A DNA stretch of 64,000 nucleotides from Lytechinus pictus. Lineage: Eukaryota. Positions 1,561 to 62,912 of the stretch are shown here, one piece after another. Below the pieces are notes generated by a model. That model saw nothing but the letters and a program-made list of their open reading frames with translations. It had not been told where the DNA came from and did no database searches. Where the stretch lies: NCBI RefSeq assembly GCF_037042905.1, contig NC_087250.1, forward strand, positions 22,694,001 through 22,758,000, read 5' to 3'. A program made the position numbers and the translations under genes. Each line of letters opens with the position of its first letter. Position 1 is the stretch's first letter.

Positions 1561-1712
1561 TTTCTGTTATATCACATGGTGTCTTGTACTACATTATTTC
1601 ACTTCCAAAACCCATTTTTATACATAATTTTCCATCATACTTTCAATTTCCCATGACCAATACCAAACCCTTATGCAAACCCAATGTCTTATACCCCTTC
1701 CCCGGTAAGCAG

Positions 1713-1826
1713 CTCGTATGTACCACACAGCCAACTATGAATCCAGGCAGCGGCGATGGGGCTCTGAGGTGAGGCGAAAGCCTAATTTACCGTTGCCCTC
1801 GACACCACAGAGCACTGGGACAGAAG
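1713..1826 (+). CDS. Exon E1 (phase 1-1, 114 bp): RMYHTANYESRQRRWGSEVRRKPNLPLPSTPQSTGTE
   Basis: aagcag acceptor closes a ~916-nt AG-free zone; in-frame alternative starts at 1710 and 1731; donor G|gtatag; CpG-rich open frame. Confidence 0.65.
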
Positions 1827-4800
1827 GTATAGGTTTGGTTGATGAATATTTCTCTGTCTCTGTATTTGTGCATCGTTCGTACATGTACCTGTTCCTGTAT
1901 TGTGCATTGTGTTGCCTTAGTCTATCAAACCAATATACCTTATACTCTCTTAATATCTTATACTGTAAAAGTGGGACAAAGGGTTAAGCTTTCATTAATA
2001 AATATTTCTTTGTGTCTGTCGTTGTGCATCTTTTGTATTAGCATACATGTCCCTGTACCTGTATGTGCATTGTGTTGTCCGAGTCTGTGAAACTATAATA
2101 CCTTATACTCTTAAACTCTCTCAACACCTTATACTGCAAAAGTGAGCTTTTGGTTACAAGTGCAATGCGAAAATAGGTGCTTCTTTATCTGCAGCAAATT
2201 GATAAAGATATCAATTGAAAATGCAAAAAGGTGAAAAAGGATGAACAAAGGAGAAAAAATAATTGAAATTAGAAAGCTGAAATTAAAGCAATAGAAAAAG
2301 TAAATGAAGTTGAAGTTGAATCACTTATCAAATCACTAATAATGTGAAGTGTTTTCTGATCTTTGCATGAAATATATAAACGTTATGGGACTTTGAAATC
2401 AAACATTGCCTTGATTGAATCACTTTTATCGTATATTTGGGGAATATCTGTTGTCTTCCTTCATAGAACTTTTATTCCATAATTATCCTCGGTGAATGGA
2501 AAGAATTAATAGATGCTGTAGAAATTATGGCTTTGTATGTAATCTATAGAATATACCCTTATGGGTATTATTTCTGTCTTTCTGTATTCTGTCTGTCTGT
2601 CTCCTTCTGTCTTATATCTTATTCTCTTCATGTGGGCCTAAATATTTTTAGATTCTGAGGCCCGTATTCTGATAGCAGGTTTAACTTAAACTCAGTTTTA
2701 AAGTTGTGGTTTAAGTATGGGAAGCCAAAAGTATCAAAATTTTTATTAAGTTGTATGTTTCTTATGTTCACTGTGCTCTTTCCTGATTCATCGATGGTGA
2801 AGACAATCGTCTATTTATACTTCCTAGACAAATATGAATGATTTGAGAGCCAAATGAGCTGAAGTATGATATCTCTACTGTTAGTGATTTATTTAACAAT
2901 TGGCCATCCATACTTAAACCACAACTTTAAACCCGAGTTTAAGTTAAACCTGCTATCAGAATATGGGCCTGTATCTCAACTTTCACTCTTGAATTCCTGT
3001 CAGGGAGGAATCCTCTTTTTGTTTGAGTCTTAATTTAGTTTTTAACCAATTCCTACCAAAATATATCTTTATGATCATTATTTCACCAAGTCAAAGCTCT
3101 AAACTATGAATAGATAAATAATACTGCTGTTTGCCCAGAGAAAAGAAGGAAATAAATATTTGTCTATATCCTTTCTCAACCATTGATTTTATTAGGTTAT
3201 ATACATTAACTTATTCACATCCATGTATATTCACCATTCAAAAAGTTCATTTACAATTTCTTCCATTGTTTTTTTTTGTTTTTTTTGTTAATTTCTTCCA
3301 TTGTTGAATGAATAACCTTCAAATTTGTACATCGAGAGACCTATTGTTAAAGATCTGTTTTGGCAGTGGGATTATGTAGTCTAATTCTTTGTTATGTCAC
3401 CGTTATTTGGTCATATCTAAAACCTATGTGAAGCATGCACCACTGTCTTGTATGAAAGCATAATGTGTCTATTATTCACCATCTCAAAGCCATTATTACG
3501 CAGTGGTACTTGTAATGTATATTACATGGTGACACGACCTTTGCTCCTTCCACAATTGCTCCGGTCCCAATGTCTCAGAAGGCATAGGATTAGAGTTGGG
3601 ATTGCTATTTTTTTTGGTTTAGAATATTGTAAAGATTACGATTTGGGTTTATTTCGTTTTTGAGGTTAGGTTTTATGTTTCACTTAATGTGTAGATTTTC
3701 CATCTGAGCAATTGTCGCCAGAGCAAATGTCATGTAACCATATTACATGTCTATGTGCCTGACATATTTGAATTTCATGCCCCCCTTTTTTTTTTGGGGG
3801 GGGAGGGGGTGCATTGGAAGGAGCCAGTCATATGTAAGCATTAACTAGAGAAAAGGGCTACCCATGTGGACATGATTTACATAATTATAGATCCGCGCGA
3901 TTTTGCATTGAAGTTTTGTAATATTTATTTGAATAGATAAAATATGGAAAAAAAATCACATTAATCATTCTAATAATGCTTCAGTATTGCTCCATATTGT
4001 TCATATAGCTTATCCTTAGATTGCCTATTTCGTTTACCTTAGAACTTCATACAACTTCACTGAAAGTATTCAAATCAAAACCGAAATTTTATACAAACCA
4101 AAACCGCATGCAGATGTTATTGGCAATACCGTTTTGTTGGTGACCAGTCAATTTCATAGAAACTTTTGATTTTGGTAATTGTAACATTGTGGTTACTATC
4201 ATAGAAAACTTGATCTACTTTGGCTCCTGAACCCGGTTGTTGTAGTTTAACTAGTTTCCCTAATCGTAAGGCCTATATCTAATAGGCTTTATTTGCACAG
4301 GATAAGCTCAAGTTAATCTCAGTGGTTGGTGTGGTTAAAAACATACATTCCTATTAGCTGCATACCTTGGCAATGTGCTCATAGCTTAATTTTGGTATCG
4401 TGCACATCTTTCTCTATTTTTTTATACACTGTGTACTATTAACTAATTATAAGCAGTAGCTTATGCGCTCATAAAGTAGGGTATCAATAACATCATGTCT
4501 TCATCATTTTTTTTATTCACTGTGTACTTATTAGATGCCCTACTCCAGGGGTTCTCAAACTTTTTCTTTGAAGGGCCAGATGAGACTCCAAGTAAACCTG
4601 AAAGGGCCAGGGTGAAGTGGATACTTAGACAAAAATGTGCGCGAAGCGCAAAGACCCTTGCGGTCGGGGTCCTAGATGCTCTATAATCTGGCCCTTATTT
4701 TGGGAGCTTTTATTCCAACAAATTTATAACAGTTTCATACAGAACGCAGGCAAAATTAGAAAAGATTTCAAAATACAGCGAGAGTCAATATTAATGATAA

Positions 4801-7800
4801 CAAAATTGCAGCACTTTGTTAGAAGGAATCTAGATTTTACCTATACATAACTGGTATTGGGGAGACAGATTATGTCTTGAAGTATCAATATTTTTGCAGT
4901 CAAAGTAGAATGAATAATAGAGTACGTCTGTTGTAGACTCTAACAAGGATGTCAGTCTTCTAGTCACTTTCAATATGGGAAAAGTGACAGTCCAAGTGAC
5001 CTTGGCACAAAAGGTGTAATTACCAGACGAAGGCACTGGTGCAAATGTTCACTGGTCAAGCAGGGGCCGCGGAAGCGGGGGGGGGGGGGGGGGGGCTTCA
5101 GCCCCCCACTTTTTTCCAAAACCATTTATATAAACGTAAAAATGACCATACGATTGTGATTTTTTGCATGGCCAGCGCCCCCCCCCCCCACTTTGAAAAC
5201 CGTTCCGCGGCCCCTGTCAAGTTACTTCGGTATGAGTTAGTTCTTTAAAATGTTCATTGTGGAAAATGCACTTTCACACCTGTATGTAGATCCAAACATG
5301 GTGAGAACAGCGCTGGTCATCTAATAAGTAGATCGAACAGACAGAAAAGACTCCACTAAACTTTGTTTAAATGTCAAATTAATTTGACTGCCATTACTTT
5401 TATTACGGTTAGGTCTACATGGATTATCTGTGGATACACAATGTAATCATATTGAGCTTTGTTTCATATTGTGACTTTAGTGATTAAAAAAAAACCCAGC
5501 AGAGTCTCGCGGGCCGGATAGAGAAGCTCTGCGGGCCGGATCCGGCCCGCGGGCCGTAGTTTGAGAACCCCTGCCCTACTCAATGCAACATGCTCATTCA
5601 GAATTTCATTCACATATTTTTTTTTTAGTCACCGTGTACAGTTCATAATGGTGGAGATATACTGTAAGAGGGATGTAGGGTGTAATCGTACATTCATATC
5701 ACATCTTCATTATTTCTTGATCCACCTTGTACGGTTCATGATGGCTTCCATTTCTGCTTTGAGTGACGTTGGTGTAGTGCATGTTATATCCTCAATATTT
5801 CTTGATCCACTGTGTACTATTTATTCAAGATAGTGTGTTATAATGAATTCATACAGATTTCCTCCTCCATATGCCATTAAACTGCCTTTGAATTTACATG
5901 TACTATATATATATTATAATACTAGTCTGAACTATTTGACAAATCATATATTTGCAATTAACATTTTAAGCTTACATGTCCATGGAATTAAGTATGTGTA
6001 TGTTGAAATGTACATGCTCACAGAGCTGTATAATTATTATGTTGTAGAGTAAATGTAGCTATACATGTAATTCACATTTTTGCCATGGCTATCTAAAGTT
6101 TCGCTTAAATGCTGTTATTACTAACATTTCTGTACTAAATCAAATTCTCTTTGTTCTCTTGCCTATTCATTTTCTCTACTCTCTTTTCTTTTCTCATTCC
6201 TCTCTCTTCTGTTCTGATTCCCCTGATAATTTCTTTTATTATGTTTTCCTTTCTTTAACTTTCTTTCAATCCATTTCTTGCACCTCTTCATTTTTCTCTG
6301 GCATTTATTTCCTTTCTCATTCCTCTTCTCATTTTCTTCTTTCCCTTTTCCATTTCATTTTTCTTCATTCTATACTCTTGTTTCTCTTCCTTTGTTTTTC
6401 TTTCCCTCCATATGTTCCTCTTACTCTTTTTTTATCTGTAACTTTATTCTCTTCTCTCACTTTTCTCTCCTTTTTTCCCCACTTTACCTTCCTTCTTCTT
6501 TTCCTTTTCCATTCTTTTATTTCCATCCATTCTATACCCTTTATCCCTTCATTTGTTTTTCTTTCCCTTTATCTGTTCCTCTTCCTTTTTTTTTATTCTG
6601 TAACTTGATTTCTCCTTTCTTTCCTCTTTCACTTTTCTCTCCTTTTTTCCCCACTTTACCTTCCCTTTATCCTCTGCTCTGCCCTTTGCACCACGCTTCA
6701 CCCGCAACCATCTGAAACAAAATAAATAAAAACTGCCACCAATAGCACATTATACTCAAGTTGAGAGGAGAGGTTCCGAACCAGTGCGACCGACGGTAGC
6801 GTTGACGGCCCGTTCGCATCAAGGTTGGTCCACGTGCATGCTTGCTGAATTTGCTTCATCCGATGGTCATTGACTGTTCTGTGATCTATTGTTGTGACTG
6901 TTTTGTGTTCCCATTCGCTGTGTCACCAGGGTCCTGTCTCACAAAGAGTTGTGATTGATCCAAGCAATCTTAAAGGACAAGTCCACCCCAACAAAAACTT
7001 GATTTGAATAAAAAGAGAAAAATTCAACGAGCATAACACTGAAAATTTCATCAAAATCGGATGTAAAATAAGAAAGTTATGACATTTAAAAGTTTCTCTT
7101 CATTTCACAAAACAGTTATATGCGCATCCCGGTCGGTATGCAAATGAGGGAACCGATGACATCACTCACTCACTATTTCTTTTGTATTTTATTATATGAA
7201 ATATGAAATATTTTGATTTCCTCGTCATTGTCATGTGAAATGAAGTATCATTCCTCCCTGAACACGTAGAATTCCATTAATTTAACATTTTGTGGTTCAG
7301 GCAATGAGGTCCTAATCGTCAAATTCGTAAAAAATGAAATATTGTATAATTCAAACAATAAAAAACAAAAGAAATAGTGAGTGAGTGACATCATCGACTC
7401 TCTAATTTGGATGTAACTGGCTCGTTCATATAACTATTTTGTTTAAAATAAGCGAAACTTTGAAATGTCATAACTTTCTTATTTTACATCCGATTTTGAT
7501 GAAATTTTTAGCATTGGGCTTGTCTGATTTTTCTCTATTGATTCAAATCAACATTTTTCTGAGGTGGACTTGTCCTTTAACTATGGAAAGCCATCAGTAC
7601 CATAATCCTTAATGGATATTTATACAATGTGCCTTTGAAAACAAAGAGGAGTGCACTAATTTATCAAGACAGTGATGCAGAGCCCAAGTATACTTTGTGT
7701 CTCAAACCTTTTGAATGCACAAATCATGGCTGGGCTGTTAAAACCTTGTATCTCACAATTTTAAAATGTTGAAGGTAGCTTAGAAAAATCTGTATTTTAG

Positions 7801-10800
7801 AAGTATAGCAATGGTGAAAATCTCATATTGTCTGAAAACAGTCTCCTGATACCTGTGAAGAACTCTTGTCAAGGCAAATGAAGGTTTGCTACCCATGTTA
7901 TACCTCTGAAATTTAGCTTATTCTGAGTTGTCATAAAAATATTTAATTTTGAAATACAAGGTATTAACAGCCCAGAGACGAAAGGCATCTTCAGTATTTG
8001 GTTTGCTGGCTTTACATAGTTGTGATTTATAGGAACAATTGTAACTGTTTGTAAGACGGCCCCAATGCCCCCCCCCCCCATCATATAAGTTTTCTTTCTT
8101 AATTTCATGATGTTTATTCATTGTACTTACAACAGAATCGAAGTGATTTGATTTTGCTTTCATTTGCTTTATTCATTCATTCTAGTTGTAGTTATTATTA
8201 TTATTTTGCCATAAAATCTATTCCAGCCAAAGATCGTGGAGGGAGGGGGGGGGGGGGCATTTTTGAGAACTTTCATTTTGTTTGCCGGAAAAAAATTAAC
8301 AGGAAAATTATTCTTATGAGTGTTGATAACCTCAATAGGGGGCTTGTCCATGATTTTTTTCCTACAAAGTGCTGTGCCGTCTGGAAAAATCCTGGATTTG
8401 CTCCTTCCCCTACACTTTTTGCTGTTGATTAATTTCTTTACTAAAACTTACTAATTTCAAGAGTGTTAGTGATTTGAATAAATTGTTTCACATTTTGTGT
8501 ATGTCATGGCATTGACTGGGGGGGGGGGTTCTAATTCCCTTTATTGCTGAATTATAGCGACTTGAACATTTTTCTTCATTTGCCCATTTTCATGAAAGAT
8601 TTGCTTGATTTATTATTTCATTCATCTATTATCATCTTGAATCAAACTTGTTCTATAGTTTTCATCATTTTTTTTTAAAGTATCATAATTTTGTTTTGCT
8701 TTCAATTACAATTGATCCATGCCATCAAGTACCCTTTTTATATTCATTTTCTTTTTGTTTTGTTTTCTTGTTTACAGTGTATTTCTACTATTTCTGCTAT
8801 TATATCTTATTTTTATAGATGGAAATAATCATAATTCATCCTGTCCAATCATTCAATTTTTTTCTCTCAGTTTTGGTTCCAATTTAATGTCTTCTGCTGA
8901 ATTGTGACTATAGCCTCATTCATCATTGTGCAGTTGATATCCCCTATGCGCTTTTTAAGGACATTTTCACAGCCATACAAAAACGCATATATACATTTTC
9001 AGTTGTTTTTATGTTTGTTGTCTGTATTATGACTATATTGACTTATGGCGTACTGATTGAACGAGATTGATTTCTGGATCATTATCCCCTTACATAGATT
9101 TTTTTTTTTTTAGCATCTAACATATATGCTAATAGTTGCTGTATTTCTTTCTGATTAATGGCTATTCTTGTAAATAACCACTTGGAAGGGAGCAAGGTAT
9201 CTGAAATGCTATCTCAGAATGTTATACTGTACAATCATAAGAATTGCGAACTTTTTTTTCTATTCTTTAATTCTAATTCTTTATCTTTTCTGTTTCTTTA
9301 ATGAATCCTTCACAGTCTCATTATATATATATTTATATACATAAAAAGTTTTTACCTTTTTGATGAAAAGATAAATTAACCATTCCCTAATTTCATCTCA
9401 CTGTTTTATAAATCTTTCAAAAAGACATGAGATATTGAATAAATGTTTGTACTCTTGGTGGAAATTTAGTTTACCGTAACATTGCTTTCATGATATTCCT
9501 CTGCTTTAGAATCCAATAACGAGAACTGAGTGTATAAAACTTGTACTTTAGGGTGAGAAGTTTCCTTAATAATTCTTTCCTGTTATTTCTCCGAAACGCT
9601 CCGACAAGACTCCTTCCATCCGCCGAGTCCTACTAAACCCAAAGTTAAACCCAAACCGCCGGTTAGGAGCAGCAGTAGAAAGCAAGAGTATTCGCCAGGT
9701 TTGTTTGTGGTTGCCTTTTCAATACTGCCGTGGGCCCATCATTTCTCTGCAAAAGAAAATAATTGTGTTTGTGTTAACAGATTCGTTCTATTCATTTCTA
9801 TTTGTGCCATCTTGCTCCAAGTAAATGAAAAAAAAAGAAAGAAAAGAAGGAAAACGTATAGGTGCTAGCACCACATGGCATTGCCTTGTTTTTATATCAA
9901 CATGGCATTTATACAGTGAAAAGTCAATCTCGGTGTTACTTGGGGCAATATGGGTTTGTCGTTTATTGTGCTCGTGTAAATTCAGGCTTTCTTTTTTGTT
10001 CATTGCTGCTGGTGCTAACTGGAGCTGCTATCAATGTAAGGTTTTGGTGTTTATGGCTACATTGTTAATGCTTGAATCCAGACACCATAGTCATTCATTA
10101 TCAGCAGTGCTTGAGAAGGGTGCTTATAACTGTTTTTTTATGGCATTGTTGCTAGGCAGCTGATATGCGTCATAAAAACCACACGTTTCAGTGAAACTGA
10201 TATGATTTTCTCACAGATTTTGATGGATTTGGGGTATTTTGAAGAGCATACCCAAGCATACCCAATTTTAATTAATTCTCACCAGGTATTGAATATGACC
10301 ATAATCCCATATGGAATCTTGCCCCCCCCAAAAAAATCTTGATAATTAAAACAAATAAAAAATAAACAAAGTGAAATTTCAAGCATTATCATGTTTAAGA
10401 ATTTGAAATCACCAAAATGATGATACAGCTACTTCATGTACAGTAAATGATGTACTATTGAATATTAAGATAAAAAGTTGGCAGTTGTAATACACAATTC
10501 AAATATCGCCAAAACTGAAAGAATTGTTTGAACATGTGTGCGCAAATTTCCTTTGGAACCATGCTTGGAAGGAATTGATTAGCTTAAAGAAAAAACCCTG
10601 CTAAAATGAGATGTGCGGTTGGTTTGATTCTCCTTTAACAGCTCCATTCTATTATTTTCGTCACAAACAGTGTGCTGTGTTCTGAGGCTTTCCCTTTCTT
10701 CTTGAATCAATGTTTTAATCTTCTGATTACTTTAATTTCTTCTGTTGAAGCTGTTTTATTTCCAAAGTTTGTGGAACAATGCAAATTTTTTGTGTGGATT

Positions 10801-37800: not shown

Positions 37801-40800
37801 ACTATCAGCCCTGTTTCTTTCTTTTATTCACCAGCTCACCTTAAAACCTTCATATTTCATTATATATTCATCTTACACAAGCAGAAAGACAACAATTTAC
37901 GATCATCCATTACACACAAAAATGAAAAGATTTCCCCTTAATTTTGTTTGGTTTTGATGAAAAAATGTAGTCAGCATGATAAAGTCCACACCAAATGACA
38001 GCAGGCAATAAAAGAGTATGGCTTTGACATATATATGCCCATTATTTAAAAAAAAAACAACCTTATTCGGGATTTCACTTATTTCTTCCACCCCCACATA
38101 TATAATTGGGGGAAAACTTACTTAATATGATTGTAAAGACTTCAGGAATCACTATAAATGTATGCCTCATGAGAGCATTGGCTTTATTTTTTGCCTTTTT
38201 TCAAACTACTTAGACTTTGTTTTTTTATTACTTGAAAACATTCGCATGTCATAACTGCAATTTTTTTAAACACAAATACATGCACAGCACTGAAATGTGC
38301 CAATTTTGAAATTATTTGCAATTTTATTTGGTGTTCAAGTGTGGCACGATTACTGTCACAAGCATGGTGCAATGACTCACAAGTGTGGCACAATGACTGA
38401 CACAAGTGTGGCACAATGACTGTCACATGTGTAGCACAATGACTCACAAGTGTGGCACAATGGCTGTCACAAGTGTGGCACAATGACTGTCACAAGTGTG
38501 GCACAATGACTGTCAAAAGTGTGGCACAATGACTGTCACAAGTGTGGCACAATGACTGACACAAGTGTGGCACAATGGCTCACAAGCGTGGCACAATGAC
38601 TGACACAAGTGTGGCACAATGGCTGTCACAAGTGTGGCACAATTACTGTCACATGTGTGGCACAATGACTCACAAGTGTGGCACAATGACTGTCACAAGT
38701 GTGGCACAATGACTGACACAAGTGTGGCACAATGACTCAAGCGTGGCACAATGACTGACACAAGTGTGGCACAATGACTGTCACAAGTGTGGCACAATTA
38801 CTGTCACATGTGTAGCACAATGACTCACAAGCGTGGCACAATGACTGACACAAGTGTGGCACAATGACTGTCACAAGTGTGGAACAATGGCTGTCACAAT
38901 TGTGGGATAAATACTGTCACAAGTGTGGCAAAATGACTGTCACAAGTACATTTGCATTGGATATTTATAATCTCACATATTTGACATCATTAGAGTCAAG
39001 TTTTAGTTGAATTGACACACCAAACAGCTGCTCCCTCGTTTGCTTCCAGCCCACTACTCTTACTTTACTTTCTGTTACCCATACTGCCAATGACACACAA
39101 CTGCATTTATACATGTTTTATTCAGAAATCTGCATCAAAATTTATTTGGATGAATCAAACAATATCACCACATCATAAATGGATTTAAAATCATGCAACC
39201 ATGCAATATAATTTCCACGAAATAAACTTAATAAAAATGATGCTTTATAACTTCTTGGCACACTTTTCAATAAGACCACCATATCTCACCAGCTTAGCAC
39301 AAGTCAAGGGGGAATAAATTTACTCAAATTTGACTGGCAGTTTTGATGAGTGTGAAAATACCTTTACCAAACTTGTGTACCATCCTATGTAAAAATCTGC
39401 TTCACATAAATGTTCACTGTCATATACATGTATGAAAAATACATTGGAAATTGCAATGGATACCTGGGTCCCATTGTATAAAAGTTACTATTCTAATTGC
39501 CATCTGATGGTAACTACCATGGTAACAGTGATCAAGAACCAATCAAAATCAACTATTCCATGAAAGAAACCATTAAACGGCAAAGATACGATAGTAGCTT
39601 TTATGCAAGAGGGCCCAGGAAAACTGACACCGAAATGAGATTGATCAAGTGCAATAAGTACAAGCAATCTCCTGACACATTATTGCTCTTAAAAACCAAT
39701 TGCTCTGTATCTGAACTATATATACGCTCTCAAGAATTATGATCGATCGATGCCTTTGAGGCAAACATTGGACCAAAGCAATTTTTTATTCCAACGATGT
39801 GATAATGAATCTGGTGTGGATTAGGTCCATTGCTGAGCCTCTGAAAAAGTATAAGATTTATTAACTTGACAGATGTGTTTGACCGAGAAGAAAAATGGAA
39901 ATTACCTGGCCTTGCTTCAGATGGTATCAAAGAAAACAACATTTCTATACCAGAGGAAGAGGCAGAGACTGAGGGTTTGTATAAGAAATGCACTATACTA
40001 TGCATAAGTTTATGCATAAGTTTTAATTAAAATATGCATAAGTTCAATGGCATAAGTAAACAAAATTGTTAAAGGTAGAATTACCTGTGGTAAATTTTTG
40101 TTTTATGGTATTATTGGACAAAGATGTGGCCTAAGTTTAATTGGCACTGGCAAAAAAAAATTGTAAGTCCACATTTCTTACTTATATTTGAATAAGTTTA
40201 TGGTGACAAATGTATGAGGCAAAATTGCATGACGAAAAATTGCATAAGGTAAATGTGCATAATTTCTTTTCATACGAATAAATGAAATTGTAAGTAAGGC
40301 GCAAATTAGCATCTTGTAGATTTGCTGAAGTTTTATGGTGTAAGTAAACAAAATTGTAATTGCAAAATTGTATAAGGTAAATCCATATACATGTAAGTAA
40401 ATGACCGTTTAAGTCACATATTACAAAATATTGTTGTTTAGTAAGAGATACCACAAAATTTACTAATCCATAGAAACAAACAAATAAGTGAACTATTTAA
40501 ATAATGCAGAAGCCTAAAATAATATGAATAAATATGCTAATAATTGTCTAATGTAACCTATTTACATACAAATCTCAACATTTTAACACATCTCAAAATT
40601 ATAACATATCTCAGCGTTATAACACAAATAATCCCCAACTCCTTTATACAAGCAAGTTTGAATAATAAGTCTTTTTTGTTATATAATTTGTAGAGACGGT
40701 AAACTTCCCCTTTTTGCCGTAAGTAATGTAATATGCATTTATGCATAGGGATTGCATAATATATATGTATAATTATTATTATGAAGAGCAGTTTAACGGT

Positions 40801-43800
40801 CAGTATTGTTCCGATGGCATCTGATAAGGGGCCTGTTTCCTAAAACTTGTTAAAATAACAATTTTGCGTTTACAGTTAAAATCTACATAAATCATTCAAT
40901 CTGATTGACTGATAGAAAACTTGCTATAGAAATTGTGCATTTGTTACTGCAGCAAGTCTTTATGAAATGGGCTTCAGGGCCCTGTCTTACAAAGAGTTAC
41001 GATTGATCCGATCAAGCGTAACTATGGAAAGCCAGCAACATCAGCATCTTATGAATGCATGATTGTTCAAAAAATATTTTCTAGATATAATGTACATGTA
41101 TATTCATAAATTCATAGTTTTCTTGACAATTTGGAGTTTTCTCCTTTGTTTACTAAGGACTTTTTGCAAATTTCCTGTGGAAAAAATGATGACACTGATG
41201 GATTTCCATAGAGTTATGATTGATTGGATCAATCGTTACTCTTTTTAAGATGGGGCCCAGGTCTTGACTACCGAGCATTCACATACAATTTGAGCTGCCG
41301 GATTAAGATTTATGGAAAAGGGAAAATTTAGCATAGCAGATGGATGCATTCAATTAGAGTATGTTTTAAACGATTAAGTTGGTATTTTTTGTAATTCACA
41401 TACAATTTGAGCTGCCGTATTAGGATTTAGGAAAAAGGGAAAATATAGCAAAGCAGATGGATGCATTCAATTAGAGTATGTTTTAAATGATTAAGTTGGT
41501 ATTTTTTGTAATTTGATCATTTCGATATAAATATATCCTTGTCTATTTTCCACCATTTTTCCTCTTCTCATTTTAATATTACTTGTGCGATGTTAGAGTA
41601 GCTGTTATTTTACTTGATATGTGGTGTTTCATTGTTAAGCTGTTGTTGGGACAGAAATTCTCTCTTATCTGCTTTTACCTTTTCTACACTAACTAGTTAA
41701 CCTTTTTCTTTCACCACTGTTGCCTCCCTCTCTCTCTCTCTTGCCCTCCTCTCGTATTTTCTTGCTATGTGTCACAAGGGAAGAATGAAACAAGCCCATA
41801 TTGTGCTACTGGTTTTGTCATTCGTTCTTTGTTTTATGGGGCACGAAATCTAGCATATGCCGTGCAATTAATTGCAAATTTGCTAATCTGCTCCAGGAAA
41901 CAAGGAGTGTAATCTGATATGCTATAGTTAAAAGTGAACAATCAATTGTAAAATTGCAACAGAATATTTGCGATTTGATCGCAAATATTTTCTTGCAACA
42001 CCCCCTTAGTCTTGTTCAAATATGACATCATCATCTCTTCACTGTCTTTACTTTCTTGATATCCTTATATTTTGATTTGCTGAAAAACAGCGATGTCTGA
42101 CCAATACCATGGTAACTTGTTAAAAAAACAAATCTGCTGAAAAGGACAGAAGAATAACGTGTTAGTGCCAACAAGCTGCATGAAATCCTTCCTTTAACTG
42201 CTTTTGATTATTAATTATGTTCTTTGTTCAACTGTTTATATACAGGTATGGTAGACAATGTTCTTTATGAATCCTACACGAGTCAGAAGTCACCGGCTCC
42301 ATCAGGTAAAATCATTATTGACTTATTCATACATAAGTAATTACCGATGCAAGGCCAGCCATGCATCCAGTAAATTTGCTATGCATCGGGTAATTCCTTG
42401 TGCATGGCAAATTTACCAGATGCATGCCCAGCCATGTGTCTGTAATTACATATGCATGGTTGTAATTTAGCCAAAAATTCCACCATTCTATAAAACAAAT
42501 GATGCACAGTAATGTCTGTGCATTGACAGGACTAGTGAGCGCGAGGTAACAATGAAAACTAGTCTATAATGGAAAATATGCAATAGCAGTTAAAAGCTAT
42601 TGAAATCAGTTGATTTGATTGGCTGATAGTAAATTTGTTATTATTACAAGTCTTTATGAATTAGGACCTTGATCTAAAGATTAGGATGATTGCCAGTAAT
42701 CCATTTACATGATTGACTTCATGTATTTGAGGTACATTTGTTAAATTTCAAATGAATTCTTGCATTGAAAACAAAAATTCATCATAAGTAATGAATAATA
42801 TCTTTAAGGTAAAAGAAAGTAATTGCAGCAAACAATTATTTTATGAGAAACTCTTTTAAATCGAATCTTAATTGTCACCATATTATCATATCATCTTTGT
42901 GAAAGCATGTAATCTTGGCTCTAACCGATAATTCTGATGATCACTAACACAGACAAGCATATGTGGGACAGTGTATTATTAATGCTTGGAAAAATACCTG
43001 ACATTTGATGGAATTCCGTGCTTATTTTGCTAATTTCTCAGCAATCACACATTTTCTTCCAGAGCCATTCGGCACATATTTCATATTTAAACATGCAAAC
43101 ACCTGGGTGGTAATTTTATTGGACTCTGTTCGAACTCATTTTGAGATCGTTACCACAACTGGCATTTATCTTTAAAGGACAAGTCCACCCCAACAAAAAC
43201 TTTATTTGAATAAAAAGCGAAAAATTCAACAAGCATAACACTGAAAATTTCATCAAAATCGGATGTAAAATAAGAAAGTTATGACATTTTAAAATTTCGC
43301 TTCATTTCACAAAACAGTTATGCACATCTCGGTCAGTATGCAAATGAGGGAACTGATGACATCACTCACTCACTATTTCTTTTGTATTTTATTATATGAA
43401 ATATGAAATATTTTGATTTTCTCATCATTGTCATGTGAAATGAAGTTTCGTTCCTCCCTGAACATGTGGAATTTCATTATTTTAACATTTTGTGCTTCAG
43501 GCAAGGAGGTCCTAATCATCAAATTCGTAAAAATTGAAATATTATATAATTCAAACAATAAAAAACAAAAGAAATAGTGAGTGAGTGACATCATCGACTC
43601 TCTCATTTGGATGTAACTGGCTCGTTCATATAACTATTTTGTTGAAAATAAGCGAAACTTTGAAATGTCATAACTTTCTTATTTTACATCCGATTTTGAT
43701 GAAATTGTCAGCATTGTGCCTGTCTGATTTTTCTCTATTGATTGAAATCAACAGTTTTCTGAGGTGGACTTGACCTTTAATGACGGGTAAACCTAATGAC

Positions 43801-46800
43801 ATTCCTTGATGTGATTTGTTCCTATGTAGGTATGGTAGATAATGTACTCTATGCATCCTATTCCAGTCAGATGTCACCTGCTTCACAAACAGGTAAGTAT
43901 AGTAAAGCAATATTGACTGGCCTCGGGGCGATACGACATATATCGCCCAAACTAGATTTATATCGCCCGAGTCGTAGACGAGGGTGATATTAATTTAGTG
44001 AGGGCGATATATGTCCTTTCGCCCCCAGGCCAGTCAATATTGCTATTATTAACCAAATCAGACATCTAGAGCAAAAATTGTTAAAATTTAGATATTTCAA
44101 ATTTTTAGAAGGAGAATCTCGTTTCTCATGTTGAGCAGATTAGGCTTCTGAACTTTACTATTGTGACGTAATTGAAATGACGCGTTCTTGGCCTAGGGAC
44201 GCAGTATCCAGCTTTGTCTCAACTTGATTACCATTATGACGTATAGCACTGCGCGGTTCAAGGACGCGTACAAAAACGCGCAGAATACCCGGATGTTAGC
44301 GCTCCTTTTATTGCCCGCTACATTTCCACGCATTTTCTCATTGACTTTCCTGAGCGGGCAATAAATTGGGCCCGTGAATAAACAATTGGAATGTTATTGA
44401 CCGGCCATTTGATCCCAGTCTTAAGTAGGCAACAACGTTTCAATGTTGCCCTGCTCAGATGTCTGATACGGTTAATAATAAGAAATATTGACTGCTCATG
44501 CGGGTAACTGTGTAAATTATCTTTCCCCGAGGTGCTTTTTATACCGTACCTTTTTATCACCCCTCGGCTAATGAAGGGAGCGATGATATCCACCATCAAC
44601 AGATACGGAGAACAGTCCGTATTTGTTTTATATAACTCATTTCTTCCTTTTCCAATCAAATGTCACTTGCTGGCTTCTTAAATGGGTTAGTAAAGTATTT
44701 ACTACTCATGATCAGATGCGAACTCTGATTAAATTGGTCGGCAAAATTGAACTTTGCACTTTTATATCATGTGGAAGAGCAGATCCAATGTGTTATTGAG
44801 CTTCTCAAAAGTGATCAACCTGACACATTACTACCATTAATTGGAAGACATTAAAAAAGGGAAAGATGAAATGAAATGTTCAGAATCACTGTTTTGGCAA
44901 CGTGTGAACTTGTAAACATTTTTATAAAAGGAAAATAAGATATGAAATCCTTAGATTATTAATGTGAGGTGTTAAAACCACGTTTTTCCTCAAAGTATGT
45001 AGATTGCCAACATAACTTTGTAAGCATCTTCCTCCAATCTCATAGGTGATTCCAATGTGATACATGTATGTTTTAAAACCACATTTTACCCCAAGTAGGT
45101 AAATTTGCAACATGTGATTTTGTAAGCATCTACCTTCAATTTCCTAGGTGATTAAAAACCGCATTTTCCCCAAAGTATGTACATGTAATTGGCAACGTTT
45201 GAAATTTGTATGCATCTGCCTTCAATTTGCTAGGTGATTCCATGACCTATGCATCAGTGCAGGACCACAGAGCTTCAGAGGACCCTAATGGTGGGATGCT
45301 GGACAACATCCTGTATGCCCCTTACACCCCTCCTGCAGAGTCTAGATCTAGACAGCCACCTCCACCCACAGCTCCTAAACCAGGGGTAAGTGTCCTGATC
45401 TAAGAGGTCTTTGGACCATGTCTTGAAGCGAAACCACATTTCAGAATACAGGTCAAACTCTGTTGGCTCTCCAGCAATCTTACTTATATTGCATATGTGT
45501 GGAGCTTTTCTGTGGTTGGTCTTATATTTCATATGTGGGGAGCCTCTCATGATGCAATTTCTTTTCTGATTTTGGCAAGGTGTTAATCTACATTTGCCAC
45601 ACTCTTCTTAGATGAGGTAAATGGGTACCAAGTTTGAGTTTATTCCTTGAATTCCTTGAAGTGCCTTATTGGCAGGTATGCAAAAGCGGGGGTTATTAAA
45701 TGCGGTGCTTAGCAACATTTGTATTAAGTGTTATGTAAATGTTGCATATTGTTAGTAGTGTTATTTTCAGTGCCAATGTATACTGAAATGCTCAGTGTAA
45801 ATTACAGACAAGGTCCTTTGTGAAGTATTACCGTGATCATTATGAAAAATAACTTTTATGGTTTTTATTTGTTCCAGTTAAGTAAATTACCCACTGACCT
45901 TTTACCTCCCTTTGACATTTAAAGGGATGGTCCGGGCTGAAAATATTTATATCTAAATACATAGAGTAGAATTCACTGAGCAAAATGCTGAAAATTTCAT
46001 CAAAATCGGATAACAAATAATAAAGTTATTGAAGTTTAAAGTTAAGCAATATTTTGTGAAAACAGTCGTCATTAATATTCATTAGTTGGGCTGATGATGT
46101 CACATCTCCACATGTCTCCCTTATAATGAAATAAGTTGCAGCAATAAATATCTAATGCGCTAAATCAGTTGTCAATCCAATTTTTTTAGTTCTTGGAGGA
46201 AAAAATTTGAATAAACCTAATTTCATATAATAAAATACAAAAGAACAAGTGGAGATGTGACATCATCAGCCCACCTAATGAATATTCATGACGACTGTTT
46301 TCACAAAATATTGCTAAACTTTAAAATTCAATAACTTTGTTATATGTTATCCAATTTCGATGAAATTTTCGGCATTTTGCTCAGTGAATTCTACTATATT
46401 TATTAAGCTATACAAACTTTCAGCCCGGACCATCCCTTTAATCATAAATTAATTTTATTGCTGCTTATGAGGTGAAAGGGCTATTCATATTTTTCTCTGT
46501 TGCTAAAAAGTTGAGTTAAGACTGGTGCTTTTTTCTTGGTAATTTGATTTGTATATTTATTTAAGATCTAAAGCATGCTCTGTTTTTCCTCATTTATTTT
46601 TTTCCCCTGGGAATGAAGGACAGTTAACATTACTATGTTGTATTTTATTTTTCCCCCTTTAATTGTTTCCTTTCCGAAATTCCTTGCTTGCTTCGTTGAC
46701 TTCATGTTTCATTCATCAATAAAAAAAAACAATAAAATAACAAAATGCTTCTTTCAATTCTCAAATCCAATTTTGATTTTCAAATCAAATTTCAATTATT

Positions 46801-47726
46801 TTGTTATCGTTTACAATTATGGTTTTACATCATTCATGATTTGCTTTCACTCATGGTCAAATAAATAAAACTGTCTTGCTTTGATAAATGAATTGCTTGG
46901 GTAATATCTCGCTTTCGGTAAAATCATGATGCCCAAAAAATTCAACTGAAAAATTATCTATCCTTCTAAACCTGAAAATAAATTCTCAATACACATGCAT
47001 GAATACCACAACTTTACATTTTTTTTAAAAATCACATCTGCCAACACACTTCCTAAACCTATGTGTGTGTGTGTATATATGCATATGCACTACCTTTACC
47101 TCACCTGCTACACCCATGCTATCCCGACCTACCCTCCTCAGAAATTAGACCTTAGCAAATTCCCAGTTCGTATGGAGGGGTTGATACGCCCCATGGGGAG
47201 CGTGAACCGCCCCAACGACCTTCCTGTCTGGCACCACCGCCGCACCCCTGCCCAAAATAACCACCCGCCCCCCTTTGCTAGCCCTGAGAGCGACGAAGGG
47301 GCCGGCTACGCCAGTCCGGCCGACGCCCTCCCCTATGATCAAGTCCGAAAGGTAATCGGAAGCAGCTTTAGGACCGGGAGTAGCGGAGGAGGGGGTCCCC
47401 AGTCGGGAATTTACTCGCAGCCCCACGATCACCTGCCTCGCGGCACTGTAAGTTGGCTCTGTTTTGCACTGCTTGTGGTGTGCATCCTGTTCATCAATCA
47501 ATCCATACATTAATTGAGAGAAAGACGGGGAGAGACAGATAATGAGAGACAAAGGCAAGCATAGACACACAGACAGACAGGCAGACAAAGAGAGATAGAG
47601 AGAGAAAGAAAAATATACTGATAGACACAGCATACACAGACAGATATACCCACACTGACAGATACACACACAGAGATACAGACATAGACAGATAAGAGAG
47701 AGAGAGACCCACAGACATGGACAGAC

Positions 47727-62399: not shown

Positions 62400-62912
62400 T
62401 GCACTCACACTTGTTTCCCTGTCACGTAATGTATTCAGAAACTGTGTCCAAACTTGTTTTCCCATTACATAACAAATTGAGTAGCTGTGTCTACACTTGT
62501 TTTCCTATTACATAACATATACAGTAGGTTTTCCCATTACATAACATATTCAGTAGCTATATCCATACATAATTCTGTATTACAAAAACATATTCAGTAG
62601 TTGTGTTTACACTTGTTTTCCTCTTACATGACATATTCAGAAACTGTGTCCACACTTGTTTCACTATGACATAACATATTCCGAAGTAGTGTCCACACAT
62701 GTTTTCCTATCACATAACATATTCAGTATTATGTCTACACATATTTTCCCATTACATTACATATTTAGTAGATATGTCCACACTTGTTTCCCTATTAATA
62801 TATTTAGAAGCTGTGTCCACACTAGTTTCCCTATTACATAACAGATTCAGTAGTTGTGTCCACACTTGTTTTTTATTACATGACATATTCAGAAACTGTG
62901 TCCACACTTCCC
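62400..62912. repeat. ~42-bp degenerate tandem repeat (tgtgtccacacttgttttcccattacataacatattcagtag)
   Basis: About 12 imperfect units downstream of E28. Confidence 0.88.

What the first reader, a model, noticed from the sequence alone, without database searches (positions are those of the whole stretch)
1713..43892. Array of 19+ frame-preserving mini-exons, most with one phosphotyrosine motif, fused to a p190-like RhoGAP
Seen: 19 consecutive exons of 39-120 bp, all multiples of 3, all phase 1-1 and all ending in G, across 42 kb. Most carry one Tyr motif at the exon start followed by a K/P-rich spacer (YTQV, YGEF, YGEY, YGVVD x3, YGVID, YGVVN x2, YATVD, YSEVN, DNVLY x2). Many donors are non-consensus (gtttgt, gtgcgt, gtctgt, gttggt, gtgtgt), while the downstream E19-E27 donors are near consensus. 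Known: vertebrate ARHGAP35/ARHGAP5 encode the region before the GAP domain mostly in one very large exon, and I know of no such repeat array in them. Inference: any subset of cassettes can be skipped in frame, so splicing could set the number and type of SH2/PTB docking sites on a Rho-inactivating enzyme.
Basis: partly seen in the sequence, partly recalled or inferred. Interest (0 to 1): 0.92.

Follow-up and report, generated by a model that had tools for sequence, protein, structure and literature searches.

The report
Spliced tyrosine-motif mini-exon array in p190RhoGAP
In a sea urchin's p190RhoGAP gene, the stretch before the catalytic domain is split into 19 tiny, freely combinable exons, most carrying one tyrosine signalling motif, so alternative splicing can probably set how many docking sites this Rho-inactivating enzyme has.

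Summary
The window is the Lytechinus pictus p190RhoGAP (ARHGAP35/5-like) gene on the + strand. Eighteen mini-exons (1713-43892) map letter for letter onto 15 RefSeq isoforms. A nineteenth (39873-39974) matches an exon used in L. variegatus. All 19 are 39-120 nt, multiples of 3, phase 1-1 and end in G.

The RefSeq models skip E1, E2, E3, block E4-E8, E9, E13, E15 and E20. Similar skips recur in L. variegatus and S. purpuratus models. Stranded RNA reads confirm three array junctions; I saw no skipping junction myself.

Eight exons carry Y[GAS]x[VI] preceded by Pro or an aliphatic residue. This resembles the EPIYA/EPxYAxV class of Src/Abl-phosphorylated, SH2-binding motifs. Shuffles give a mean of 0.45 copies. 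Echinoids have 9-10 copies, a sea star 6, other invertebrates 1-4, and three vertebrate p190 proteins 0-1.

The equivalents of the vertebrate RasGAP-docking tyrosines (Y1087/Y1105) lie in E20, not in the array. E20 is itself a cassette in several phyla.

Phosphorylation and SH2 docking are inferred, not shown. The exons are already annotated, but my paper searches found no description of the array. I rate it a new variant of a known kind, of moderate interest.

The parts
1713..1826 (+). E1, 114 nt, phase 1-1 (ARMYHTANYES...STGTE). Skipped in X5 and X10. NAGNAG alternative acceptor at 1710 in X2.
   Evidence: The E1->E2 junction is seen in 14 and 16 stranded RNA reads and in 2 contigs.
6746..6823 (+). 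E2, 78 nt (AHYTQVERRG...), donor gttggt. Skipped in X6 and X11-X15. A long form to 6865 (donor gtcatt, +14 aa) is used in L. variegatus X1.
9609..9698 (+). E3, 90 nt, Pro/Lys-rich (PPSPTKPKVKPKPPVR...QEYSP). Skipped in X4 and X7.
13606..13644 (+). E4, 39 nt, acidic linker with no Tyr. First exon of the block E4-E8, which is skipped in X8-X11, X13 and X15.
14318..14371 (+). E5, 54 nt (EIMAYGEFRPR...). YGEF matches the +1 Gly and +3 Phe preference of c-Src kinase.
   Evidence: papers
15031..15081 (+). E6, 51 nt (EIAAYGEYRQQ...), a paralogue of E5 with 65% nt identity.
15883..15951 (+). E7, 69 nt (ENPVYGVVDRSAKK...), an EPIYA-like module.
16500..16568 (+). E8, 69 nt (EIPEYGVIDRSRKK...), a paralogue of E7 with 75% nt identity.
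17996..18064 (+). E9, 69 nt (DQPLYGVVDRGTKK...). Skipped in X11, X13 and X15.
   Evidence: The E9->E10 junction is seen in 7 and 13 reads.
19024..19089 (+). E10, 66 nt (GLYGVVNKPAKSPKPK...), donor gtgcgt.
   Evidence: The E10->E11 junction is seen in 7 and 10 reads.
20177..20251 (+). E11, 75 nt (AVYGVVNKPKKSPKP...), donor gtttgt.
22621..22677 (+). E12, 57 nt (GITGTAGMWKKAD...), no Tyr. S. purpuratus has Tyr where this exon has Trp.
26218..26295 (+). E13, 78 nt (DIHAVVDKPGK...). His stands where L. variegatus and S. purpuratus have Tyr. Skipped in X12, X14 and X15.
29434..29508 (+). E14, 75 nt (DVYATVDKQRKP...), donor gtctgt.
31581..31700 (+). E15, 120 nt (GGDPIYGVVDRQRDRKP...). Skipped in L. 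pictus X15, and the homologous 40-aa cassette is skipped in L. variegatus and S. purpuratus models.
34375..34446 (+). E16, 72 nt (ALYSEVNKGFK...).
39873..39974 (+). E16b, 102 nt, phase 1-1, acidic, no Tyr. It is a candidate nineteenth exon: absent from all 15 L. pictus models and homologous to a cassette of L. variegatus X1.
42246..42305 (+). E17, 60 nt (GMVDNVLYESY...), a copy of the ancient bilaterian G[WM][VI]DNxxY motif.
43830..43892 (+). E18, 63 nt (GMVDNVLYASY...), a paralogue of E17 with 78% nt identity. S. purpuratus has a single copy.
45234..45385 (+). E19, 152 nt, which ends the symmetric series. It holds a third DNILY motif and PPPPTAPKP, which aligns with vertebrate PPPVKPKP.
47142..47447 (+). 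E20, 306 nt, phase 0-0, skipped in X12 and X14. It holds GYASPADAL and GIYSQPHD (both YxxP), the likely equivalents of vertebrate p190A Y1087 and Y1105.
   Evidence: (BLASTP E=0.26 only)
51828..59333 (+). E21 (51828-52047), E22 (56895-56926), E23 (58581-58625) and E24 (59204-59333): linker, Lys/Pro-rich polybasic stretch and start of the RhoGAP domain.
60346..62303 (+). E25 (60346-60561, RhoGAP core with the arginine finger in GIYRVSG) and E26 (62198-62303). The gene continues beyond the window.

Best explanation
The region is the disordered pre-GAP 'middle' part of the L. pictus p190RhoGAP gene.

Origin. Old tandem exon duplications expanded it into 19 symmetric (phase 1-1, last base G) mini-exons. 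Each is a self-contained module. About a dozen hold one tyrosine motif near the exon start, followed by a Lys/Pro-rich spacer.

Splicing. Because the exons are symmetric and mostly have weak donors, they behave as cassettes. Splicing yields proteins with different numbers and kinds of modules.

Inferred mechanism:
- The [ED/x]-P/x-[ILV]-Y-[GAS]-x-[VI]-[DN] modules and the YGEF/YGEY modules are substrates of Src/Abl-type tyrosine kinases.
- Once phosphorylated, they act as multivalent ligands for SH2 domains of the EPIYA-binding type, such as Csk, SHP2, RasGAP or Src-family SH2.
- The spliced-in number of modules would then set how strongly p190 is recruited to, or scaffolds, tyrosine-kinase signalling sites, and so where Rho is switched off.

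Shown: gene identity, exon anatomy, in-frame modularity, annotated skipping in three echinoids, three junctions in RNA, motif enrichment and conservation of the tyrosines.

Inferred: phosphorylation, the SH2 partners, and regulation of inclusion.
For: Gene identity and anatomy:
- The GAP exon is 100% identical to L. pictus ARHGAP35/5-like isoforms.
- Isoform X1 carries Ras, FF, pG1/pG2 and RhoGAP Pfam domains and no domain between residues 962 and 1722.
- 18 exons map exactly, and all 19 are symmetric.

Skipping:
- The 15 L. pictus isoforms show 9 distinct array patterns.
- Homologous cassettes (E1, E2, E3, the E4-E8 block, E12/13, E15) are skipped in separately annotated L. variegatus and S. 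purpuratus models.
- Motif-bearing cassettes are skipped in sea star, sea cucumber, crinoid and hemichordate models.

RNA: stranded reads give GT..AG junctions E1->E2, E9->E10 and E10->E11, all with the first mate on the - strand, so the RNA is +.

Motif:
- Enrichment is 8 copies against 0.45 expected, with 0 of 20000 shuffles reaching 8.
- 19 of 20 aligned L. pictus tyrosines are Tyr in S. purpuratus (one is Phe), against 66% overall identity.
- Seven of the 8 Y[GAS]x[VI] copies have I/L/V at -1.
- Published specificities fit. c-Src and c-Abl kinases prefer I/L/V at -1; c-Src prefers Gly at +1 and Phe at +3; SHP2 C-SH2 and Src SH2 prefer an aliphatic +3 (PMC10065799, passages).
- VYGAVVD-type peptides are good Src substrates (PMC3082566, passages).
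- EPIYA-related motifs (EPIYG, EPVYA, EPLYA, EGLYA) are phosphorylated by Src-family or Abl kinases, bind Csk and other SH2 proteins, sit in disordered repeats and vary in copy number (PMC3593179 passages; PMC3561454 abstract).

Splice sites: donors in the array are weak.
Against: - There are no data on phosphorylation or binding.
- In my read lay, the three array splice junctions among the 15 joints displayed of 130 were inclusion junctions; 115 joints were not shown. So I did not see skipping myself.
- RefSeq isoforms are computed models, and their exon combinations may not exist as full-length mRNAs.
- Residues from -2 to +4 around the motif tyrosines are no better conserved between L. pictus and S. 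purpuratus than the rest (0.667 over 63 columns against 0.656 over 393).
- Only 4 of the 8 copies have Pro at -2, and none is an exact EPIYA.
- Four of 19 exons have no Tyr, and L. pictus E13 has His where relatives have Tyr, so not every module depends on tyrosine.
- The difference in +3 pyrimidines is not significant alone (p=0.13).
Confidence: 0.6

Rival explanations
1. The array is a variable-length disordered tether between the pseudo-GTPase domains and the GAP domain, or it carries motifs that do not need phosphorylation. Candidates are YxxPhi adaptor-binding or NPxY/NxxY PTB-type motifs, or Lys/Pro stretches that bind SH3 domains or acidic lipids. Splicing would then tune length or charge rather than phosphotyrosine valency.
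For: - Composition is Pro 52, Ser 45, Glu 42 and Lys 38 of 467 residues, with no Pfam domain.
- Four exons lack Tyr.
- Flanking motif residues are not conserved above background.
- E7 reads NPVY and E17-E19 read DNxLY. Relatives read NPLY, NPIY and NPVY at the homologous place, which is the PTB-ligand form.
- The spacers are rich in KPxKxPKP.
Against: - Tyrosines are kept in 19 of 20 aligned positions, while the spacers drift.
- The Tyr context (aliphatic -1, small +1, aliphatic +3) fits kinase and SH2 preferences.
- p190 proteins are known Src/Abl substrates at nearby tyrosines (PMC6523970, passages).
Confidence: 0.2
2. The exons are essentially constitutive. The many annotated isoforms reflect low-level splicing noise at weak donors of very short exons, with no regulatory meaning.
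For: - Weak donors and tiny exons.
- Only inclusion junctions appeared among the joints displayed.
- Gnomon-type models can be built from rare junction reads (my recollection of the pipeline, not tested).
Against: - The same cassettes are skipped in models of three echinoids annotated separately. Homologous modules are cassettes in sea star, sea cucumber, crinoid and hemichordate models.
- All 19 exons preserve symmetry and a final G, which is what selection for harmless skipping would give.
- Rough per-exon RNA depth is lower for E4-E6 than for E1, E2 and E9 in run X16. Short exons are hard to align, so this is weak.
Confidence: 0.15
3. The mini-exons are a separate gene or untranscribed look-alikes, not part of the RhoGAP transcript.
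For: None found.
Against: - All 15 RefSeq proteins join them to the GAP exons.
- Spliced RNA reads on the + strand cover three junctions.
- Orthologous proteins in two other urchins keep the same order.
Confidence: 0.01

Closest known systems
Vertebrate p190RhoGAP-A/B (ARHGAP35/ARHGAP5) middle region with Tyr1087/Tyr1105 docking of p120RasGAP
   Same: Same protein family and domain order. There is a disordered pre-GAP region with Src/Abl-phosphorylated tyrosines that recruit an SH2 protein (PMC6523970, passages). The likely equivalents of these two tyrosines (YASP, IYSQPHD), the PPPxxPKP stretch and the polybasic stretch are present in E19-E24.
   Different: Vertebrate proteins are about 1500 aa, listed without isoform labels, and have 0 or 1 Y[GAS]x[VI] copies in this region in the 3 examined. 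Here a further 467 aa in 19 mini-exons lies upstream of the conserved tyrosines. The conserved tyrosine module (E20) is itself a cassette.
EPIYA-type tyrosine motifs: bacterial EPIYA effectors, mammalian Pragmin, p140Cap EPLYA/EGLYA
   Same: A short [E/D/N]-P-x-Y-[A/G] core, often followed by x-V, lies in disordered, tandemly repeated segments whose number varies. These motifs are phosphorylated by Src-family or Abl kinases and bind Csk, SHP2 and other SH2 proteins (PMC3593179 passages; PMC3561454 abstract). The window has NPVYG, QPLYG, DPIYG and EGLYG followed by V-V; relatives have EPVYG, EPTYG and EPIYA.
   Different: This is an endogenous animal protein, and copy number would be set by splicing rather than by recombination between strains. 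None of the window's copies is an exact EPIYA. Phosphorylation and binding are untested. The review reports EPxYAxV as depleted in mammalian proteomes, whereas echinoids carry 9-10 related copies in one protein.
Arrays of symmetric cassette exons that each encode one repeat (titin PEVK exons, CD44 variable exons); recalled, not looked up here
   Same: One module per exon, all exons in the same phase, so any combination stays in frame and splicing sets the number of modules.
   Different: Those modules are elastic or extracellular segments, not intracellular tyrosine motifs on a GTPase-activating protein.
Multi-tyrosine scaffold regions (Cas substrate domain; Gab, IRS and Dok tails)
   Same: A disordered region with many similar tyrosine motifs acts as a multivalent SH2 platform. 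These families are named as scaffolds with disordered tails in PMC3593179 (conclusion passage).
   Different: As far as I recall, those arrays are not split one motif per cassette exon. Here the platform is fused to an enzyme that inactivates Rho.
Repeated ..VYG.VVD.. sites in the tail of the choanoflagellate receptor kinase RTKB2
   Same: The local sequence is nearly the same as E7, E9 and E15. Such peptides are efficiently phosphorylated by Src-type kinases (PMC3082566, passages).
   Different: It is an unrelated protein and organism. I saw nothing on its exon structure or splicing.

Membership tests
p190RhoGAP (ARHGAP35/ARHGAP5/RhoGAPp190) | C-terminal RhoGAP domain with a catalytic arginine finger | tested here: met
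   PF00620 at residues 1723-1871 of isoform X1, E=1e-39. GIYRVSG is encoded at 60346-60561.
p190RhoGAP (ARHGAP35/ARHGAP5/RhoGAPp190) | N-terminal GTPase-like domain, FF domains and pG1/pG2 pseudo-GTPase domains | tested here: met
   PF00071, PF16512, PF23083 and PF19518 all score above their cut-offs in isoform X1. These parts lie upstream of the window. The link rests on the RefSeq protein, whose C-terminal 26 exons map exactly onto the window.
p190RhoGAP (ARHGAP35/ARHGAP5/RhoGAPp190) | Pre-GAP tyrosines equivalent to Tyr1087/Tyr1105 (YxxP) that dock p120RasGAP | tested here: inconclusive
   E20 has YASP and YSQP. The best BLASTP match of E20 to a bird p190A is GIYSQPHD against NIYSVPHD at residues 1103-1112, but E=0.26. 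A 12-species alignment places both pairs in the same columns. Binding was not tested.
EPIYA-type phosphorylation motif | Core E-P-I-Y-A or an accepted relative (EPIYG, EPVYA, EPLYA, NPLYE and others), as in the EPxYAxV pattern | tested here: inconclusive
   Four of the 8 Y[GAS]x[VI] copies have Pro at -2 (NPVYGVV, IPEYGVI, QPLYGVV, DPIYGVV). The others read GLYGVV, AVYGVV, DVYATV and ALYSEV. There is no exact EPIYA in the window. Accepted variants are listed in PMC3593179.
EPIYA-type phosphorylation motif | Motifs lie in a disordered region as tandem repeat segments of variable number | tested here: met
   The composition is rich in Pro, Ser, Glu and Lys, with no Pfam domain. Repeat modules are paralogous. 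Copy number differs between urchin species and between isoforms. Disorder was judged from composition only; no predictor was run.
EPIYA-type phosphorylation motif | Tyrosine phosphorylated by Src-family or Abl kinases, then bound by SH2 proteins | not testable with these tools
   Only the sequence context fits published preferences.
Symmetric cassette-exon repeat array | All exons are in the same phase and multiples of 3, so any subset splices in frame | tested here: met
   19 of 19 are phase 1-1, multiples of 3 and end in G.
Symmetric cassette-exon repeat array | Exons are alternatively included in mRNA | tested here: inconclusive
   Skipping of 10 of the 18 modelled array exons (E1, E2, E3, E4-E8, E9, E13, E15), plus E20, appears in RefSeq models and recurs in two other urchins. 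My read lay displayed only 3 inclusion junctions; 115 joints were not shown.

The most novel reading that the evidence does not exclude
Ambulacrarian p190RhoGAP is an endogenous 'EPIYA-type' multivalent SH2 platform whose valency is written by combinatorial splicing. Tissue- or stage-specific choice among about 19 interchangeable mini-exons would set from none to about a dozen docking tyrosines of at least three kinds: YGEF/Y, PxYGVV[DN] and DNxLY. The choice also covers the ancestral RasGAP-docking module in E20. Valency would then set the threshold at which tyrosine-kinase activity recruits a Rho-inactivating enzyme. This would be a natural host counterpart of the promiscuous motif class that bacterial effectors evolved independently and that mammals are reported to have purged.
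Probability: 0.3. Interest if true: 0.75.

Novelty: new variant of a known kind. Interest (0 to 1): 0.5.

Why it matters
p190RhoGAP is the main switch-off enzyme for RhoA. In vertebrates it is steered by two phosphotyrosines. Sea urchins, and to a lesser degree other echinoderms and hemichordates, may steer it through a splice-selectable array of up to about a dozen tyrosine modules. If so, this is a clear natural case in which alternative splicing sets the valency of a signalling scaffold fused to an enzyme.

L. pictus and S. purpuratus are tractable embryos for testing this in cytokinesis, ingression and gastrulation.

The finding also gives an animal context for EPxY[AG]xV-type motifs, so far discussed mostly as bacterial mimicry. 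It further shows that the conserved RasGAP-docking module of p190 is an optional exon in RefSeq models of several invertebrate phyla.

None of this changes the gene annotation, which already exists. The value lies in the reading of it.

Tried and rejected
- Sequencing runs: no RNA holder was listed for 13500-20300. I laid two likely-RNA contig sets and two raw RNA runs of the same species label instead.
- Read lay: only 15 of 130 joints were printed, most of them repeat artefacts. Per-exon depth suggests lower coverage of E4-E6, but exons of 39-54 nt are hard to align, so I do not count it.
- Array region against the protein collection: of 13 proteins found, all were camarodont urchins. Word-based search cannot reach more diverged arrays, so this is no evidence of absence. 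Relatives were found through the conserved N-terminus instead.
- Conservation of motif flanks: no excess over the rest of the array.
- E20 against bird p190A by BLASTP: the top hit is the right site, but E=0.26.
- Rbfox-type TGCATG: 8 sites within 300 nt downstream of the 19 array exons against about 4.3 expected. The word is enriched on both strands (48 and 39 against 28.6 and 25.5 expected), so this is not a strand-specific signal.
- Rfam over the whole window: 0 families.
- Pfam on 7 of the 36 long ORFs, chosen in introns and on the - strand: 0 families. No nested gene was found.
- Earlier findings of this scan: none.
- Papers: 8 papers hold both p190RhoGAP and sea urchin, and by title and abstract none concerns this gene's structure. 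The 4 papers on RhoGAPp190 and splicing were irrelevant. EPxYAxV occurs only in the review. No sea urchin phosphotyrosine proteome appeared among the 10 listed of 102. Nothing was found on the size of the vertebrate first coding exon.
- A structure prediction of the array was not run, because no admissible sequence under 1200 aa covers it (P0046 does not).

Full report
What the window is.

The window is AT-rich DNA (31-38% G+C) without long ORFs. An exon at 60348-60560 encodes the core of a RhoGAP domain. It is 100% identical to a set of NCBI RefSeq proteins named rho GTPase-activating protein 35-like/5-like of the sea urchin Lytechinus pictus. It is 96% identical to L. variegatus and 87% to Strongylocentrotus purpuratus. 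Cluster look-ups gave all 15 L. pictus isoforms, X1-X15.

Isoform X1 (1903 aa) has the full p190RhoGAP architecture: Ras-like domain, FF domains, pG1/pG2 pseudo-GTPase domains and a C-terminal RhoGAP domain. No Pfam domain lies between residues 962 and 1722.

Checking the observation.

I mapped all 15 proteins onto the window with an exact, splice-aware script. The window holds 26 exons of this gene on the + strand. Eighteen lie between 1713 and 43892: E1 1713-1826, E2 6746-6823, E3 9609-9698, E4 13606-13644, E5 14318-14371, E6 15031-15081, E7 15883-15951, E8 16500-16568, E9 17996-18064, E10 19024-19089, E11 20177-20251, E12 22621-22677, E13 26218-26295, E14 29434-29508, E15 31581-31700, E16 34375-34446, E17 42246-42305, E18 43830-43892.

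The missing one is 39873-39974 (E16b). It is absent from every L. pictus model. It matches a 34-aa cassette of L. variegatus X1, has an intact cag acceptor and gtttgt donor, and is open in phase 1.

All 19 exons are 39-120 nt, multiples of three, phase 1-1, and end in G. The next exon, E19 (152 nt), breaks the series. Because every exon ends in G, the split codon is G plus the first two bases of whichever exon follows. The junction residue therefore depends only on the downstream exon, and the modules are fully interchangeable.

The donors he quoted are there (gttggt, gtttgt three times, gtgcgt twice, gtgtgt, gtctgt). On average the array donors match the U1 consensus less well than the seven downstream donors: 5.9 against 6.7 of 9 positions, one-sided p=0.0125. 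A pyrimidine at +3 occurs in 7 of 19 against 0 of 7, which alone is not significant (p=0.13).

Is it transcribed and spliced?

No run was indexed as an RNA holder. I laid two contig sets that hold about the exon share of the words, and two raw, stranded RNA runs with the same species label, on 1600-21500.

GT..AG junctions E1->E2 (14 and 16 reads, plus contigs), E9->E10 (7 and 13 reads) and E10->E11 (7 and 10 reads) are present. All have the first mate on the - strand, which means + strand RNA. Only 15 of 130 joints were printed, most of them from intronic repeats. The lay therefore neither shows nor excludes skipping.

Evidence for skipping comes from annotation. The 15 L. pictus models skip E1 (X5, X10), E2 (X6, X11-X15), E3 (X4, X7), block E4-E8 (X8-X11, X13, X15), E9 (X11, X13, X15), E13 (X12, X14, X15), E15 (X15) and E20 (X12, X14). 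This gives 9 distinct array patterns.

Comparison of 12 L. variegatus and 13 S. purpuratus isoforms shows skips of the homologous cassettes. These include the 40-aa E15 module in all three species, and large blocks of up to 325 aa in S. purpuratus. These annotations rest on each species' own data, so recurrence argues against pure noise. They remain computed models, and I could not audit their read support.

What the modules are.

Translated in phase, the array is 467 aa rich in Pro, Ser, Glu and Lys. The modules fall into groups:
- E5/E6 read EI.AYGE[FY].
- E7-E9 and E15 read x-P-x-Y-G-V-[VI]-D-R followed by a basic, Pro-rich spacer.
- E10/E11 read [LV]YGVVNKP.KSPKP.
- E14 and E16 read VYATVDK and LYSEVNK.
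- E17/E18, and part of E19, read GM[VL]DN[VI]LY.
- E3 is a Pro/Lys stretch.
- E4 and E16b are acidic and lack Tyr.

In the repeat modules E5-E11 and E14-E18, the tyrosine is residue 3-8 of the exon peptide.

Y[GAS]x[VI] occurs 8 times against 0.45 expected by shuffling, and 0 of 20000 shuffles reach 8. Paralogous exons are 64-78% identical in DNA (E5/E6, E7/E8, E7/E9, E17/E18), against a background of 48 +/- 5%. Their flanking introns are at or near background, so the duplications are old.

Copy numbers differ between urchins. S. purpuratus has three E5/E6-type units, two E7-E9-type units and one E17/E18-type unit. Nineteen of 20 aligned L. pictus tyrosines are Tyr in S. purpuratus and one is Phe, against 66% identity overall. 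The residues around the motif tyrosines are not better conserved than the rest (0.667 against 0.656).

L. pictus E13 has His where both relatives have Tyr. E12 has Trp where S. purpuratus has Tyr.

Relation to the rest of the family.

A search with the whole protein found 823 relatives, of which the best 120 were listed. Invertebrate p190 proteins are listed with many RefSeq isoforms: Patiria up to X23, Antedon X20, Apostichopus X11, Ptychodera X12, Branchiostoma X12, Parasteatoda X38 and Limulus X15. The vertebrate ARHGAP35/5 entries listed are about 1500 aa and carry no isoform labels.

Isoform differences place most of these cassettes in the same pre-GAP region. In echinoderms and a hemichordate, several cassettes carry the same kind of motif: DPAYGEVKKPKP, EPVYGVINKK and EPTYGVVNKS in Patiria, EPVYGTVQKPK in Asterias, PSPIYAQINKPRR in Apostichopus, and ENIYATVTKPKK in Antedon.

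Counting Y[GAS]x[VI] between pG2 and the arginine finger gives 9-10 copies in three urchins and 6 in Patiria. It gives 1-4 in eleven other invertebrates, and 0, 0 and 1 in three vertebrate proteins. The urchin array is therefore a lineage-specific amplification of a motif that is older than echinoids.

The G[WM][VI]DNxxY motif of E17-E19 is present, usually in two or three copies, in hemichordates, amphioxus, molluscs, a nemertean, a brachiopod and chelicerates.

A 12-species alignment of the region before the GAP domain gives three correspondences:
- E19 PPPPTAPKP aligns with vertebrate PPPVKPKP.
- E20 GYASPADAL aligns with vertebrate DYAEPMDAV (Tyr1087).
- E20 GIYSQPHD aligns with vertebrate NIYSVPHD (Tyr1105).

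The pairwise BLASTP hit for the last pair is the top hit but weak (E=0.26). The known RasGAP-docking tyrosines thus correspond to E20, not to the mini-exon array. E20 or its equivalent is a cassette in models of L. pictus, Patiria, Asterias, Ptychodera, Branchiostoma, Parasteatoda and Limulus.

How it most likely works.

From here the argument is inference from sequence context and literature. In vertebrate p190A, Tyr1105 is a Src, Brk and Abl2 site needed for binding p120RasGAP and for membrane recruitment, and Tyr1087 stabilises the complex (PMC6523970, passages).

The array tyrosines have an aliphatic residue at -1 in 7 of the 8 Y[GAS]x[VI] copies, a small residue at +1 and Val or Ile at +3. 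E5 reads YGEF. Published profiling gives these preferences (PMC10065799, passages):
- I/L/V at -1 for c-Src and c-Abl kinases.
- Gly at +1 and Phe at +3 for c-Src.
- A small residue at +1 and an aliphatic residue at +3 for SHP2 C-SH2.
- I/V/L/M at +3 for the Src SH2 domain.

The standard c-Src test peptide contains EEIYGEF. Peptides reading ..VYGAVVD.. from a choanoflagellate receptor kinase are even better Src substrates (PMC3082566, passages).

The form [E/D/N]-P-x-Y-[G/A]-x-V is that of the EPIYA class. The review PMC3593179 (passages) lists EPIYG, EPVYA, EPLYA and NPLYE as accepted variants. It describes them as sitting in disordered, tandemly duplicated segments of variable number. They are phosphorylated by Src-family kinases and bind many SH2 proteins promiscuously. 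The review also reports EPxYAxV as under-represented in mammalian proteomes. In mammals, Pragmin (EPIYA) and p140Cap (EPLYA, EGLYA) use such motifs to bind Csk (PMC3561454 abstract).

I therefore read the array as a splice-adjustable, multivalent phosphotyrosine platform on a Rho-inactivating enzyme. Weak donors and small exon size make the modules skippable.

Rivals.

1. The array may be a length- or charge-adjustable tether, or may use motifs that need no phosphorylation, such as PTB-type NPxY/NxxY, YxxPhi or SH3/lipid-binding Lys-Pro runs. In favour are the four Tyr-less exons, the unremarkable conservation of flanks and the NPxY form of the E17-type motif in relatives.
2. The isoforms may be splicing noise. 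Against this stand the recurrence across species and the perfect symmetry.
3. A separate gene is excluded.

Surroundings.

The introns hold dispersed repeats with very high RNA or contig depth (for example 2264-2927, 6912-7575, 20192-20855) and several tandem repeats. I found no Rfam family. There was no Pfam domain in the 7 of 36 long ORFs that I tested. I found no nested gene.

Novelty and verdict.

The exons and isoforms are already in RefSeq, so the anatomy is annotated. My searches of the paper library found no description of the array, its motif class or its splicing. Absence from this library is not proof that it is unpublished.

It is a new variant of known kinds: p190 tyrosine docking, EPIYA-type motifs, and symmetric cassette-exon repeat arrays. 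The splicing part is well supported by annotation but not by my own reads. The docking part is a well-motivated inference.

Interest is moderate, 0.5. It would be higher if long reads and phosphoproteomics bear out valency coding.

Noticed in passing
beyond window end (protein level: L. pictus X2; L. variegatus, S. purpuratus and Antedon isoforms): There are two alternative versions of the C-terminal third of the RhoGAP domain...ITQCSEENLMTAENLSICWWP... against ...VTGHHDGNKMKAEN.AICWCP... They look like mutually exclusive exons or alternative 3' ends and are conserved from urchins to a crinoid. They could change GAP properties.
   Followed up: partly
window 1710/1713: E1 has a NAGNAG acceptor (aag|cag). 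Isoform X2 uses 1710 and gains one Ala.
   Followed up: yes
window 6823/6865: E2 has two donors, both after a G and both in frame. L. pictus models use the short form. The long form (+14 aa, GWSTCMLAEFASSD) is used in L. variegatus X1 and is identical at the protein level in L. pictus.
   Followed up: partly
upstream of window (protein residues 611-624 and about 985 of X1): Two further cassettes lie outside the window. One is a 14-aa segment in the pG1 region, absent from 7 of 14 compared isoforms. The other is a 44-aa exon (..HDPLVKPSEIRNRMRLQQQ..) present in an older L. pictus model (P0040) and in L. variegatus and S. purpuratus. Its HLVKPS motif is conserved, and also a cassette, in sea stars, a sea cucumber and a hemichordate.
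   Followed up: partly
window 26218-26295 (E13) and 22621-22677 (E12): L. pictus E13 reads IHAVVD where L. variegatus reads IYAVVD and S. purpuratus LYGTVD. E12 has Trp where S. purpuratus has Tyr. These are apparent lineage-specific losses of docking tyrosines. I did not check whether the His is polymorphic.
   Followed up: no
window 42401, 42421, 42453 and 26376, 26469: There are clusters of TGCATG just downstream of E17 (3 sites within 150 nt) and E13 (2 sites). Overall the word is enriched on both strands, so this is only a weak lead to Rbfox-type control.
   Followed up: partly
window 2264-2927, 6912-7575, 18200-18863, 20192-20855: Intronic stretches show very high depth in contigs and RNA reads on both strands, with many loose ends. 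They are presumably dispersed repeats or transposon fragments expressed elsewhere in the genome.
   Followed up: no
window 38336-38947: A 23-nt minisatellite with about 27 copies lies in the intron between E16 and E16b. Other tandem repeats lie at 48033-48514, 52256-52760, 59510-60001 and 62406-62909.
   Followed up: no
window 1792 and 13634: There are RNA/assembly differences inside exons. G>A at 1792 (E1) is seen in 7 of 24 and 9 of 20 reads. G>A at 13634 (E4) is seen in 8 of 8 and 3 of 3 reads. These are probably alleles of the sequenced animals. An older model also differs by a one-codon indel in E4.
   Followed up: no
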